Assembly: GCA_964016885.1 (NCBI GenBank)
Contig: OZ024743.1
Location: 336,722,001 to 336,786,000, forward strand
Direction: 5' to 3'
Length of the DNA stretch: 64,000 nucleotides
DNA from: Eledone cirrhosa
Taxonomy: Eukaryota
A model generated the notes under the pieces. That model worked only from the letters and a program-made list of their open reading frames with translations, searched no databases and had not been told where the DNA came from. A program made the position numbers and the translations under genes. Numbering within the stretch: the stretch's first letter is position 1; the number at the start of each line of letters is the position of its first letter. Shown here in pieces: positions 4,230 through 64,000 of this stretch.

Positions 4230-6848
4230 CCCAGCTTGAGTCTTTACTTAACGGGACATTACAAAACATAGACACAGGATAGATTGGAAATGAAATTCAA
4301 CACTAAGAGAAAAGAGCTAAATGTTATCACAGATAAACTTAAGCAACGCGTTATAGCAAAAAGTGCAAAGATTAAACGATATGAGAACAGAGTTAGTCAG
4401 TATTGACAGAACCGCATGTTTAACAACCGGACGATGTTATTTGAACAACTTGAAGGGAAAGAAAGAGGTAACGACGCGATCCCTGAAGCTGAACAGACCA
4501 GCACATTCTGGAGAGGGGTATGGAAGCAGGATGTTGAACATAATAGTCAGGCAGTGTGGATTGAGACAGTTAAAAAGGAGGTTAGTAACCAAGCACACCA
4601 ACAACCTGATTTGAGTATCACGGTTGAAACTCTTAAAAAGCAGGCCAATAAACTAATCAACTGGAAATCACCAGGCCCAGATGGTGTGAAAAGGATATTG
4701 GATAAAATAATATAACATCCCTCCACCCAAAACTGACAGCCATGTTCAATGACTGCTTGGTGTCGGGTGTAGTACCAGAGTGGTTGATAAAGGGTACCAG
4801 GGTTCTGGTAATGAAAGACTGAATCAAGGTTAATGATGTTACACATGTCTGTGGGTAATGTGGAAACTGCTAACAAGCATTCTGTCTAAAAAAATCTACC
4901 ATCACCTCCACATAAACAAATTATTGCCGGACAAATAGAAAGGATGCCGAAAGAAGTCCCGTCGTACAAAAGATCAGTTACCCATTGATAAGATTGTAAT
5001 AAAGAACTTCAAGAGGAGGCATACTGGTCTTGCCATGGGATGGATAGATTACAAGAAGGCATTCGACATGGTACCTCATTCTTGGATAACCAAAAGCCTA
5101 GAGATCTTCAAGGTGGCAGACAACATCAGACAGCTATTAAGTAATATGGGAAACAGAGCTAACATCAGGTGGAGAATCATTGGGAGGAGTGAAGATCAAG
5201 AGAAGTATCTTCCAAGGAGATAGTTTGTCCCCTCTATTGTTTGTCCTTACCCTCATCCCCTCGTCACTCATATTGCGAAAAGTGAGAGCAGGATACAATC
5301 TGAGAAGAGGAGAGCTTACCATTAACCACCTCCTCTTCATGGATGATCTAAAACTCTTTGGGAAAAGCGATGAGCTGGATGTACTTGTTGACACTGTCCG
5401 TATTTTCAGCAATGATATATGTATGGAATTTGGTGTTAATAAGTGTGGAGTTCTAGTGATGAAGAGGGGTAAATTGAACAGAAGCAACGGAATCCAAATA
5501 CCAACGGATGAGATTATGAAGGAAATCAACACTGGAGAGGGATACAGATATCTGGACGTTCTGGGGTAAGATGACATCAAGAACAATAACATGAAGGAAT
5601 TGATAAGATCTGAGTACATAAGGAGAGTAAGGAACATACTAAAATCACATCTAAATAGTAGAAATGCCATAAGTGCAGTAAATTCCAGAGCTGTGTTTAT
5701 TACTACAGTGTGGGAATTCTCAAATGGAATGTTACTGAACAAAAACAAATGGATAGGAAGACTAGGAACCTAACAAGCTACAGAATGTTCCACAAGAAGA
5801 GTGATGTTGATAAACTCTACTTAAAGAGATCTGAAGGAGGAAGAGTTCTTATCAGCGTAGAGGATTGTGATCAGATGGAGATGAGCTGTCTACACAAATA
5901 TGTGTCGTAGAGTAGGGAGCCGATGCTCAAAGTTGTACTGAAGACAATAGACCAGGGGATGTCCAAGAAGGAAATAACAACAAAAAGGAAGAGCAACCTT
6001 CATGAAAAAGTCCTTCATAGCACCTTTTTTAAGAAAAAGGAGTTCAGAGATCCACAGACATAGAGCTGGTTTAAAAGAGGAGACCTTAAAAAGCTACAGA
6101 AGGAATTCTACTGGCTGCTCAGGAGCAAGCCATCAGAATGAAGTGGGTGAAACACCATATTGTCAAGGAGGAGGCTATCCCACTCTGTATGATATGTGGA
6201 GAGAGAGAGAGAGGGGAGACTGTGGCTCACATCGTATCCGCGTGTAAACACCTAGCCTAGACTCACTATAAAGGATGGAGGCACGATATAATAGGAAAAG
6301 TGATTCACTGGCATTTATGCAAACTAAATAATTTACCACATTCTGAGAAGTGGTATGAGCATAAGCCAGAATCGGTGATAGAAAACGATCAGGTGAAGGT
6401 GCTATGGGATTTTAGGATACAGACGGACAAGAAATTAGAACACAATAGGTCTGACCTGGTGGTTTTTGACAAGGAAAAAAAATCGAGCCAGATTGTAGAT
6501 GTAGCCTGCCCATTTGACACAAGAGTGCAAGAAAAGGAGGAGAAAATTAACCGATACCAGGATTTAAAGTGGGAATTTAAAAGTATTTGGGACTGTCATG
6601 AGATCAAGGTCGTCTCGATTGTCATAGGAGAACTAGGTACTATCTCGAATAGTATTCAAGGATGGTTAAAGAAGATTAGTCCAGCCCCCTTTTTTGGAAT
6701 ACTTCAAAGGGCATGCTTGCTGAGAACAGCAAGAACACTCCGATGCGTCCTGAATATCTGAGGTTGTAGGTAGCGGCTTAATGTTATAAACTTTGCAGTT
6801 AAATAACATCAATGACTGAGACTCCAAGAAAATAATAATAATAATAAT
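4230..6848 (+). mobile_element. Degenerate R4/Dong-like non-LTR retrotransposon (family A), RT + CCHC + restriction-like endonuclease, (TAA)n tail
   Basis: Fragments 'WKSPGPDG', '[16 protein letters not shown]', '[12 protein letters not shown]', 'HLLFMDDLKLF', 'DLVVFDKEKK..IVDVACPFD..EKINRYQDL'; many stops/frameshifts; (TAA)n at ~6831-6848. Confidence 0.9.
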
Positions 6849-7245
6849 TTCTTTATTAGCCACACTGGGCTTACATTAAGGAAACATTAAAGACGACACA
6901 CGACGATACAGTGCGGGTTTATCTTTGTGTAAAATAAAATTTATAAAATAAATATTTAAAACAAACATAACAACTTCCCCAAAGCTGAGGAGACTCTAAG
7001 GGTCACTCGTGTAGAAATTCCACAAAAGCCACGGTCACCCTGTACTCCAGGGCAAAGTGCCCTCTTTCAGTTTTCCAACTCCAATCTACAGGTGTATGCT
7101 CAAGGCAGACCCATTCACACGGACCATGCTTGCTATTCTAACCCCTCTTTCAACAAACTAGTTGGAAGCAGCACTTCCCTCTCCACCCTGATTTTCCTCT
7201 TCAAGTGAAATCTGAAAAAGTTAATCAGGGTTTCGACGAAGAGGA
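6849..7245 (-). mobile_element. Diverged 3' end of a Tx1-like element
   Basis: tttctttattagccacac...aagtgccctctttcagttttcca...cccattcac...ctgattttcctcttcaagtgaaat aligns by eye with 34826-35220. Confidence 0.8.
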
Positions 7246-61658: not shown

Positions 61659-62260
61659 TGATGGGAAGGGTGATCCACTGGCACCTATGCAAAGTAAACA
61701 ATTTACCACATTCTGAGAAGTGGTATGAGCATAAGCCAGAGTCGGTGATAGAAAACGATCAGGTGAAGGTGCTGTGGGATTTTAGGATACAGACGGACAA
61801 GAAACTGGAACACAATAGACCTGACCTGGTGGTTTTGGACAAAGAATAAAAGATCGTGCCTGATTGTGGATGTGGCCTGCCCATTCGACACGAGAGTGCA
61901 AGAGAAGGAAAGGGAGAAAATTAACCGATACCAGGACTTAAAGTGGGAGGTAAAAAAGATTTGGAACTGCCATGAAGTCAAAGTGGTCCCGATTGTCATA
62001 GGCGCACTAGGTACTATCTCAAGAAGTTTCCAGGGATGGTTAAAGAAAATTGGTCCTTTCACGCTTTTTGGAACGCTTCAAAAGACATGCTTGCTGGGAA
62101 CAGCAAGAACCCTCCGATACGTCCTGAATATCTGAGGCTGCAGGTAGTGGCTTGATATTCATTTCAACAAACTTTCCAGTTAACTAACATCAATGATTGA
62201 GACTCAAATAATAATAATAATAATAATAATAATAATAATAATAATAATAATAATAATAAT
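61659..62260 (+). mobile_element. R4/Dong-like family A 3' fragment inserted in the family B tail, with its own (TAA)n tail
   Basis: 'GRVIHWHLCK..RPDLVV..DVACPFD..TLRYVLNI'. Confidence 0.93.
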
Positions 62261-64000
62261 GTTTTCTTTATTAACCACAAGGGTTCACATAAAGTAGACA
62301 TTAAGGACAGTACAGGACAATACAGGACGGTACAAATGGGCATTTCTGCGTGTAAAAAAACAGAGGTTGAAATAAAATAACAAAGAAAAATTCCCCAATA
62401 GGGGGGAGACTTTCGAGGGACATTTGTGGAGAAAGCCCATTAAAAGAACACAGTAGCCCTGACCACCAGGGCAAGTGCCCTCTCCCAGTTTTCCACCTTT
62501 AATTTACAGACACATACTCAGAGAAGGCCCATTCATTCGGGCCATACTGGCTTCTCTCACCCATCTTTCAACAAAATGCTGGGAAGAGAGCACTTCCCTC
62601 TCTACCCTGATTTTCCTTTTCAAATGAAATTTGAAAAAGTTAATCAGGGCATCACCGAAGAGGTAAGTGCTCGTCTTCAGCCCTTTCAAACGTGTCCACC
62701 ATACTATCTCTTTCGCCATGGCCACCAGACAGATAAAAACTGCCTGCCCTTCCAGGATAAAGGAAGGGGGCGGGGCAATCCTAACGATGGACTCAGCTGA
62801 TAGCCGGATAGGTCCTACACGTGACAGCAGGTGTTCGACATAAACCCACAAGTCAGCAATGCTCGGACACTGGACGAGTGCGTGCAGGACGGTTGCGTCG
62901 CCCTGCGCGCATCTCGGATATGCCCGGCTGACGGCACCTCCATGCCTGTAGAGTTTATCCCGAACTGGCAAAGCTCCTCGGTAGCACTGCCAGGCCAGGG
63001 ATTTCTGGAAGTTGTCCATAGGCCCCGGCCCGAAAGTCCTTCCGAAGAGATTGGCCAGTTGATTTTCGTCGACGCCTAGAGTTTCTCCAAGTACGTCGTC
63101 GCTCTTCCCCTCCACTAATCCCCTATAGAACGCCAAGGTGGAGTTTCCACCGATCACATTGCCCGATTGGTCGAGGGCTGTGAGCGCCTGAAGACATTCC
63201 AGTCTCCAGGCGCTCCCTCTCGGTCTTCGCTTGACCCAGGACTGCAGCTCCGTCAAGGAAACGAGCTGGGGAAATACGCGCCTAGCAAACGGCGACCACA
63301 CCTGATCACCGTCGATGAAGAGGTAGAGATGTCGTAGCCTGAGCGCGTGCCTGCGCATCATCAGCCACGGCATGCCCAGCCCTCCACGTAGCGGGTGTTG
63401 ACAGTAGATGGACCGCCTGACCATCGGAGCGCGTCCCTTCCACAAGAAGCGAAAGAGCAAACGCTCCAGCGCAGTCAGGCGGGGCTTAGGACAAGGTACG
63501 ACGGTCAGGCGGTAGTAGATGACGGATGCGATGTACGCATTCGCCACCTCCGCTCGACCTTTCAGGGATAGCTTCCTCTCGGCCCATTTCTGGGTGAGAG
63601 AAGCCACCTGCTCGTCACCTCGTCCCAGTTTTTGTCCGTCTGGAGGTCTGGACCGAACCAGACCCCTAGCAATTTAACCGGTCCGTCCGTCCAGCGCCCG
63701 ACGACGCTGTTGGACGGCATGGACCTGCCTCTCCAGGTGCCGAGCTGCAGGCCCACTGACTTTTCCTGGTTGATCATTGCTCCTGTCACCGCTTCGTATT
63801 CTCTTAGTGTAGTGCCGATCGCCTCGATGTGTTTGGCGTTCGACACCACTACGGTGACATCGTCGGCATATGCTGACACGGATCTTCCGCATCCTAGTTC
63901 GCGCGGGACCCCCCTCAACGTCTCCAGTTTGTGCAGTAATGGCTCGAGAGTCAATACGTACAATAGGGACGAGAGGGGACATCCTTGGCGGACCGAGCGC
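62261..64000 (-). mobile_element. Tx1-like element copy 5 (diverged subfamily, frameshift at ~63606), runs off window end
   Basis: ORF2 C-terminal fragments 62504..63607 and 63562..63963. Confidence 0.93.

What the first reader, a model, noticed from the sequence alone, without database searches (positions are those of the whole stretch)
6762..62300. Tx1 family sits tail-to-tail on the 3' tail of the same Dong-like family three times
Seen: at 6849 (old, diverged copy), 34826 and 62261 the Tx1 3' end abuts the (TAA)n tail directly after the family A 3' UTR (...catcaatga.tgagactc.a-(TAA)n-tttctttatta.ccac), always in opposite orientation. Other (TAA)n tracts here (31609-31699, and the family B tail at 61620) have no Tx1. 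Inference: the Tx1 element may prefer the tail of this RLE retrotransposon, a persistent element-on-element relationship across different ages. With n=3, plain shared (TAA)n targeting or co-mobilisation as a chimeric unit are also possible.
Basis: partly seen in the sequence, partly recalled or inferred. Interest (0 to 1): 0.78.

Follow-up and report, generated by a model that had tools for sequence, protein, structure and literature searches.

The report
Retrotransposons stacking in TAA microsatellites
The Tx1-type jumping gene does sit tail-to-tail on the second element three times here, but across the genome it sits in TAA repeats of many origins, so it most likely targets the repeat itself and meets the second element mainly because that element's tails are among the longest such repeats.

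Summary
The three junctions are real (6833-6848, 34783-34825, 62209-62260) and are not copies of one duplication. Genome-wide there are 9,393 young Tx1 3' ends, 10,156 A tails and 133,238 perfect (TAA)5+ runs. 55 of 59 sampled Tx1 ends have TAAT at the junction; 26 of 129 (20%) sit on an A tail. That is 3-fold above a per-tract null (6.6%) but 1.2-1.6-fold above length-weighted nulls (13-17%). A tails carry a Tx1 in 27 of 100, tracts beside Tx1's own 5' ends in 24 of 60, B tails in 11 of 75 (A vs B p=0.064; 0.13-0.22 region-matched). Spacing to the A 3' UTR varies from 22 to 85 nt. Target-site duplications end in TAAT on the TAA strand, which likely explains the fixed opposite orientation. Verdict: a (TAA)n-targeting Tx1 family building nested stacks with two Dong-like families; A-specific recognition is not supported, a weak bias is not excluded.

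The parts
4233..6838 (+). Old family A copy (RLE-type non-LTR element, 5'-truncated)
   Evidence: 82% to a full-length A copy
6833..6847 (+). (TAA)5 tail of the old A copy
6848..7247 (-). Old Tx1-type 3' fragment, a diverged lineage
   Evidence: 72% DNA identity to the young family; tblastn to the ORF2 C-terminus E=4e-10
31609..31698 (+). (TAA)30 tract ahead of family B
31699..34413 (+). Family B (second RLE-type family), 5' part, with RT
   Evidence: Pfam RVT_1 at 33716-34411; contiguous with 60114-61618 in intact copies L340 and L422
34387..34413 (+). 27-bp target-site duplication, left copy, in the coding region of B; not a TAA site
   Evidence: identical to 60114-60140; single in intact B
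34429..34776 (+). Family A 3' fragment (A1)
34783..34824 (+). (TAA)14 between A1 and Tx1 copy 1
34825..40844 (-). Full-length Tx1-type copy 1: ORF1 frame 702 codons, ORF2 frame 1195 codons (APE endonuclease, RT, zinc finger)
40899..46931 (-). Tx1 copy 2 (one-base insertion breaks ORF2); (TAA)18 at 40845-40898 on its 3' side
46983..53014 (-). Tx1 copy 3; (TAA)17 at 46932-46982 on its 3' side
53042..59065 (-). Tx1 copy 4; (TAA)9 at 53015-53041 on its 3' side, (TAA)7 at 59066-59086 on its 5' side
59087..60090 (+). Family A 5'-truncated copy (A2) with CCHC and PD-(D/E)xK region; its tail (60098-60112) has no Tx1
60114..61618 (+). Family B 3' part, starting with the right copy of the 27-bp duplication (60114-60140); tail (TAA)13 at 61619-61657
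61659..62208 (+). Family A 3' fragment (A3) in the tail of B; tail (TAA)17 at 62209-62259
62260..64000 (-). Tx1 copy 5, subfamily b; runs about 4.1 kb past the window and is followed by (TAA)16, another Tx1 and (TAA)30
   Evidence: (L423)

Best explanation
This Tx1-type element sits in (TAA)n tracts of many origins and likely targets the microsatellite itself, likely nicking the TAA strand after TAAT, so that it always ends up facing opposite to the Dong-like families A and B, whose own tails read (TAA)n. Shown: the junction context, the variety of hosts, the genome-wide counts, the variable spacing, the target-site duplications ending in TAAT, and the independence of the junctions. Inferred: (1) the ORF2 APE endonuclease makes that nick, and the freed TAA-strand end primes reverse transcription on an RNA ending in (AUU)n; (2) A and B prime from the other strand; (3) each insertion leaves a (TAA)n tract on both sides, so targets multiply and stacks grow; (4) A tails are common hosts because A is the most numerous long-tailed family counted and its tails are long (12.9-17.3% of long-repeat windows) and lie in the same stacks; (5) a junction can form either way, Tx1 into an A tail or A into a tract beside a Tx1. 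At 34387-60140 the 27-bp duplication inside B indicates that an A copy made the first TAA tract and the four Tx1 copies came later.
For: 55 of 59 sampled young Tx1 3' ends have TAAT at the junction and 50 of 59 have 5 or more TAA units; left neighbours: A 14, Tx1 5' end 12, SINE 8, B 2, plain or other 23. A share 26 of 129 against nulls of 6.6% (per tract), 12.9% (95% 10-16) and 17.3% (95% 12-24). Occupancy by any Tx1 3' end: A 27 of 100, Tx1a 5' tract 12 of 30, Tx1b 5' tract 12 of 30, B 11 of 75, first-listed unselected tracts 8 of 80. Spacing from the A motif 22-85 nt, all 21 gaps in one phase of 3. Duplications of 11, 14, 18 and 49 bp at four imperfect sites all end in TAAT at the Tx1 3' junction (read by eye). 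26 of 39 resolved A 5' ends and 18 of 25 resolved B 5' ends are preceded by TAA. A second Tx1 lineage (4,883 ends, about 78-80% identical) has TAAT near the junction in 24 of 30 and an A tail in 5 of 30.
Against: A tails are occupied about twice as often as B tails although their lengths are alike (6.8 against 7.0 five-unit windows): 27 of 85 against 11 of 70, p=0.025, unchanged after a rough age covariate; with all rows 27 of 100 against 11 of 75, p=0.064; region-matched odds ratio about 2, permutation p 0.13-0.22. In the second lineage all 5 A hosts fall in one subtype (5 of 11 against 0 of 19). The milder length-weighted null is still exceeded (p=0.025). The nulls use present-day tract lengths, which insertion itself changes, and most samples come from the first 100 Mb of one contig. 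17 of 37 rows scored as truncated have at most one TAA unit at the far end (some are chaining artefacts). Part of the Tx1-on-Tx1 comparator may be tandem duplication rather than insertion. No biochemistry was done.
Confidence: 0.8

Rival explanations
1. Tx1 targets (TAA)n but has a real extra bias, about two-fold, for tracts that follow the family A 3' UTR, through flanking sequence, DNA shape or chromatin of A copies.
For: A 27 of 100 against B 11 of 75, odds ratio 2.15; p=0.025 in the first 85 and 70 rows; 5 of 11 in one subtype of the second lineage; long A copies 17 of 46 against short TAA-flanked ones 4 of 26 (post hoc).
Against: Not significant with all rows or region-matched; A occupancy swings from 11 of 18 (30-40 Mb) to 3 of 28 (40-50 Mb); Tx1 5' tracts score 24 of 60; the last 15 A tails examined had 0 Tx1.
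Confidence: 0.14
2. Tx1 recognises a site in family A, as Tx1L does in Tx1D or Tx1-Mar in Mariner-N4, and is a dedicated parasite of A.
For: Raw 3-fold enrichment; 20-24% of flanks are A, which just meets the 20% working rule for target specificity in PMC4494074; seen in old and young lineages.
Against: About 76-80% of ends are elsewhere; spacing of 22-85 nt shows no fixed register; TAA context is near-universal (55 of 59); insertions occur at bare TAAT sites with unique flanks.
Confidence: 0.03
3. A and Tx1 move together as one chimeric unit, or the junctions descend from a segmental duplication.
For: Weak positive Mantel correlation between partner distances: r=0.25, p=0.02 for all 32 pairs; r=0.10, p=0.053 for 25 young pairs. 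The two young A fragments in the window are 97% alike.
Against: 20 pairs read over 10 kb differ in A length and identity (86-99%), Tx1 subfamily, truncation point and far flank; only 1 of 496 pair comparisons has both partners within 1%, against about 2.5 under independence (my arithmetic); the window's two young junctions carry different Tx1 subfamilies; the 27-bp duplication brackets the whole stack, not an A-Tx1 unit.
Confidence: 0.02

Closest known systems
Microsatellite-targeting Tx1-clade families Kibi (TC)n, Koshi (TTC)n and crocodilian (TTCC/TTTC)n families (PMC4494074, passages and section 15 read; PMC3812793, passages read)
   Same: APE endonuclease plus RT, near-universal insertion into one simple repeat, tandem copies
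   Different: Target is (TTA)n on the element's sense strand; no Tx1 family with this target appeared in the passages read; clade position against these families was not tested
Dong elements of Bombyx, Anopheles and Biomphalaria, TAA-targeting (PMC3812793, passage read)
   Same: Families A and B have an RLE-type protein, (TAA)n tails and mostly TAA-flanked 5' ends; they share the target repeat with the Tx1 family
   Different: Placement of A and B in the R4/Dong clade was not tested by phylogeny; about one third of resolved A 5' ends are not at TAA
Transposon-targeting Tx1 families: Xenopus Tx1L into Tx1D, Tx1-Mar into Mariner-N4, Tx1-9_AMi into Harbinger (PMC4494074)
   Same: An element of this clade repeatedly found on another element
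   Different: Those insert into the host element's own sequence (Tx1-9_AMi about 300 bp from its 5' end); here the insertion is in the repeat tail at variable distance and the host is a minority of sites
Keno and Utopia sharing the U2 gene site (PMC4640811, passages read)
   Same: An APE-type and an RLE-type family converging on one multicopy target
   Different: Here the shared target is a microsatellite that the elements themselves regenerate, and the two types face opposite ways

Membership tests
Tx1 clade (L1 group) non-LTR retrotransposon | Two ORFs; ORF2 with N-terminal APE endonuclease, RT and C-terminal zinc finger | tested here: met
   Pfam Exo_endo_phos E=3e-14, RVT_1 E=1e-28, zf-RVT E=7e-8; ORF1 frame of 702 codons upstream
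Tx1 clade (L1 group) non-LTR retrotransposon | Closer to Tx1 proteins than to L1 or R2 | tested here: met
   Best named homologue 'Transposon TX1 uncharacterized 149 kDa protein', 315 bits, 32% (7 hits among 8000 scored); human L1 ORF2 180 bits, R2 76 bits; scores come from two different searches
Tx1 clade (L1 group) non-LTR retrotransposon | RT phylogeny places it within Tx1 with reference families | not tested
   No reference set of Kibi, Koshi, Keno or Tx1L proteins was in hand
Microsatellite-specific retrotransposon | One repeat type at most 3' junctions, one orientation | tested here: met
   TAAT at the junction in 55 of 59, 5 or more units in 50 of 59
Microsatellite-specific retrotransposon | Endonuclease cleaves the repeat in vitro | not testable with these tools
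   Needs a cleavage assay
Transposon-targeting Tx1 (Tx1L / Tx1-Mar type) | Host element in more than 20% of flanks (working rule of PMC4494074) | tested here: inconclusive
   26 of 129 exact motif, 14 of 59 with mismatches allowed: at the threshold, and close to length-weighted expectation
Transposon-targeting Tx1 (Tx1L / Tx1-Mar type) | Insertion at a defined position in the host's own sequence | tested here: not met
   Insertion in the tail, 22-85 nt from the A motif
Transposon-targeting Tx1 (Tx1L / Tx1-Mar type) | Host preferred over other carriers of the same local motif | tested here: not met
   A 27 of 100; Tx1 5' tracts 24 of 60; B 11 of 75, difference not significant
Dong / R4 clade (families A and B) | One long ORF with RT, CCHC and C-terminal PD-(D/E)xK endonuclease, no APE | tested here: met
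   Best solved relatives are R2 proteins (E=1e-26 for B, 2e-24 for A); CCHC and RPD..D..K..Y read by eye from the translations (motif recalled); A and B 44% identical over 514 aa
Dong / R4 clade (families A and B) | (TAA)n tail and insertion into (TAA)n | tested here: met
   TAA tails; TAA before 26 of 39 A and 18 of 25 B resolved 5' ends (46 of 85 and 45 of 70 unresolved)
Dong / R4 clade (families A and B) | RT phylogeny places them in R4/Dong | not tested
   No reference Dong or R4 proteins in hand

The most novel reading that the evidence does not exclude
A previously undescribed (TAA)n-targeting Tx1 radiation (over 14,000 copies by two motifs) that shares and regenerates one microsatellite niche with two Dong-like families on the opposite strand, mobilises a very abundant tRNA-head SINE through a shared 3' end, and has begun to favour the tails of one of the Dong-like families, a step from repeat targeting towards element-on-element targeting.
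Probability: 0.1. Interest if true: 0.65.

Novelty: new variant of a known kind. Interest (0 to 1): 0.3.

Why it matters
As found, it is a clean, large-sample case of two unrelated endonuclease types sharing one microsatellite on opposite strands and building self-feeding stacks tens of kilobases long; it also shows that apparent element-on-element targeting can come from a shared tail repeat, and that the null must weight tract length. A TAA target for a Tx1 family did not turn up in my searches, so the family may extend the known target list. If the residual bias for A tails proved real, it would offer a tractable look at how microsatellite targeting turns into host-element targeting.

Tried and rejected
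Segmental duplication and co-mobilisation: rejected. Fixed-register recognition of the A 3' UTR: rejected. 'Family D', first taken for another tailed element, proved to be the 5' end of Tx1 subfamily b. Age as the cause of the A-over-B excess: a nearest-neighbour divergence covariate did not remove it, though it is a crude clock. A whole-genome joint count of A tail plus Tx1 end was not obtained, so occupancy rests on samples. The regex classes (A 26 of 70, B 12 of 70, with at least one SINE miscalled as Tx1) were replaced by the BLAST-based classes; the last 20 rows were classed by motif only. Rfam found no tRNA family in the locus holding the SINE copy, so its tRNA origin rests on A and B boxes read by eye. 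Paper searches found no Tx1 family targeting TAA/TTA; the library lacks most subscription journals and Repbase, Kojima and Fujiwara 2004 was seen only as cited, and the figure labels and supplements of PMC4494074 that list Tx1 targets were not seen and may hold such a family. Look-ups of earlier findings returned nothing.
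Full report
OBSERVATION. The same scan shows three more Tx1 3' ends at 40899, 46983 and 53042, each against the (TAA)n at another Tx1's 5' end, and an A tail at 60098 with no Tx1. In the window, 3 of 6 Tx1 ends are on A and 3 of 4 A tails carry Tx1.

THE ELEMENTS. The Tx1-type unit is 6.0 kb with two ORFs; ORF2 has APE endonuclease, RT and zinc-finger domains. Its best named homologue is a 'Transposon TX1 uncharacterized 149 kDa protein' (315 bits); human L1 ORF2 scores 180 bits. 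Families A (4.5 kb full length, L422) and B (4.9 kb, L340) are RLE-type, nearest to R2 among solved structures and 44% identical to each other over 514 residues. 'Tx1' and 'Dong-like' rest on architecture, similarity and target; no tree with reference families was made. The organism is not given.

ANATOMY. 31609-64000 is one nested stack: (TAA)30, B 5' part, A fragment, (TAA)14, four Tx1 copies separated by (TAA)18, 17 and 9, (TAA)7, A, (TAA)5, B 3' part, (TAA)13, A, (TAA)17, Tx1; it goes on past the window with (TAA)16, another Tx1 and (TAA)30. B is split by a 27-bp duplication (34387-34413 and 60114-60140) at a non-TAA coding site (single in intact B). Inference: an A copy landed there, its tail made the first tract, and the second A and the four Tx1 copies filled it.

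GENOME-WIDE COUNTS (exact motifs, so lower bounds). Young Tx1 3' ends 9,393; A tails 10,156; B tails 2,417; Tx1 subfamily b and a 5' ends 1,567 and 1,696; perfect runs of 15 or more bases of TAA 65,958 + 32,959 + 34,321 = 133,238, with the reversed controls summing to 133,237; a 600-kb random sample gave 27 such tracts, 45 per Mb. Overlapping (TAA)5 windows 535,107 and (TAA)10 windows 201,266.

FROM THE TX1 SIDE. Of 59 sampled ends (29 best genome-wide hits without the window's own, plus the first 30 on contig C1), 55 have TAAT at the junction and 50 have 5 or more units; the left neighbour is A in 14, a Tx1 5' end in 12, a SINE in 8, B in 2, plain or other in 23. By exact motif, 21 of the first 100 listed ends and 5 of the 29 genome-wide hits are on A: 26 of 129. 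A tails make up 6.6% of tracts, 12.9% (10-16) of five-unit windows and 17.3% (12-24) of ten-unit windows, scaling tail lengths from 85 A copies; binomial p = 2e-7, 0.025 and 0.35 against 0.065, 0.13 and 0.17. These tests ignore clustering and use present-day lengths.

FROM THE HOST SIDE. Right neighbour is any Tx1 3' end in 27 of 85 A tails, 11 of 70 B tails, 12 of 30 Tx1a 5' tracts, 12 of 30 Tx1b 5' tracts and 8 of 80 first-listed unselected tracts. A against B gave p=0.025 and survived a crude age covariate; A against the Tx1 5' tracts gave p=0.38. The remaining 15 listed A tails and 5 more B tails had no Tx1, giving 27 of 100 against 11 of 75, p=0.064; in the same interval 27 of 100 against 6 of 38, p=0.19; stratified odds ratio about 2, permutation p 0.13-0.22; A occupancy runs from 11 of 18 at 30-40 Mb to 3 of 28 at 40-50 Mb. 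A second Tx1 lineage (4,883 ends) has A on the left in 5 of 30, all in one subtype (5 of 11 against 0 of 19), B in 0 of 30. A is thus no better a host than Tx1's own flank; an excess over B remains possible.

INDEPENDENCE. Twenty A-Tx1 pairs read over 10 kb differ in A length and identity, Tx1 subfamily and far flank. Among 32 pairs, partner distances correlate weakly (r=0.25, p=0.02, including old outliers and one very short Tx1; r=0.10, p=0.053 for 25 young pairs), and 1 of 496 comparisons has both partners within 1%. The window's old junction is about 16% and 31% from the 62260 junction in its A and Tx1 parts.

MECHANISM. At four imperfect sites the flank is duplicated over 11, 14, 18 and 49 bp, and each duplication ends in TAAT at the Tx1 3' junction (L440, L012, L010, L025; read by eye). 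All 21 A-to-Tx1 gaps are in one phase of three but range from 22 to 85 nt. With target-primed reverse transcription (established knowledge of non-LTR elements), this points to a first nick on the TAA strand after TAAT and priming on an RNA that ends in (AUU)n; elements whose RNA ends in (UAA)n must prime from the other strand. Tail-to-tail orientation then follows from strand choice alone. These steps are inferred, not assayed. Many truncated rows lack TAA at the far end (17 of 37 with at most one unit), partly through chaining errors, so not every insertion shows a clean duplication.

KNOWN CONTEXT. PMC4494074 (passages and section 15 read) lists Tx1 families that target (TC)n, (TTC)n and (TTCC/TTTC)n and others that target transposons, and a SINE class probably moved by Tx1; PMC3812793 (passages) lists Dong elements as TAA-targeting; PMC4640811 (passages) notes an APE and an RLE family sharing the U2 site; PMC13282606 (passages) reports recently active Dong-R4 and L1-Tx1 families in an octopus, with 'nested' absent from its text; PMC4758252 (passages) adds nothing on Tx1 targets. 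My eight answered searches found no TAA-targeting Tx1; Repbase, subscription papers, figures and supplements were not seen.

VERDICT. Real junctions, ordinary cause: a microsatellite-targeting Tx1 family and Dong-like families share one target and stack. Element-specific targeting is not supported. What may be new is the TAA target for a Tx1 family, the scale of the stacks and a candidate partner SINE.

Noticed in passing
window 34825-59065: The four Tx1 copies form two near-identical pairs: copies 1 and 2 differ at 7 sites, 3 and 4 at 5, across pairs 25-31. In the 5' 1.48 kb the pairs differ at 0 and 1 sites against a median of 20 among genomic copies. Likely two insertions, each doubled locally, or serial insertion from one donor; copies 1 and 2 differ only in the 3' 1 kb, hinting at recombination.
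   Followed up: partly
L011, L229, L238 and 57 ends in L181-L240: A very abundant SINE of about 195 bp with A- and B-box-like head (read by eye) ends in a sequence like the Tx1 3' end (local alignments beaten by 0-31 of 2000 shuffles), faces the same way and has TAAT at its junction in 52 of 57. Candidate Tx1-mobilised SINE.
   Followed up: partly
window 34825-40844 against L323:3450-9342: Tx1 subfamilies a and b share the 3' 3.75 kb at 96% but have no detectable DNA similarity in the 5' UTR and ORF1; further 5' types appear. Suggests swapping of the 5' module.
   Followed up: no
L422:5213 and L340 (minus strand): Full-length A and B, 44% identical in protein, share their first 325 bp at 76%.
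   Followed up: no
window 34387-34413 and 60114-60140; L070, L075 and others: A inserts at non-TAA sites too (13 of 39 resolved 5' ends lack TAA, some may be internal deletions), seeding new tracts; 27-bp duplication in B.
   Followed up: partly
L421-L422 (G000:C1:2792001-2812000): A 20-kb stack made only of A and B copies joined by (TAA)n, without Tx1.
   Followed up: no
L246, L259, L268, L306, L309, L316, L320: Another unidentified repeat end (starting TGAAATTATTGTGTACAG after TAA) follows many TAA tracts; a further TAA-associated family.
   Followed up: no
window 3953-4237: A diverged internal Tx1 fragment (72-78%) lies directly left of the old A copy.
   Followed up: no
window 21942-22502 and 20474-21571: GIY-YIG and weak RT hits, probably a decayed Penelope-like element; the sequence after the (TAA)4 at 22946 recurs after TAA tracts elsewhere.
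   Followed up: no
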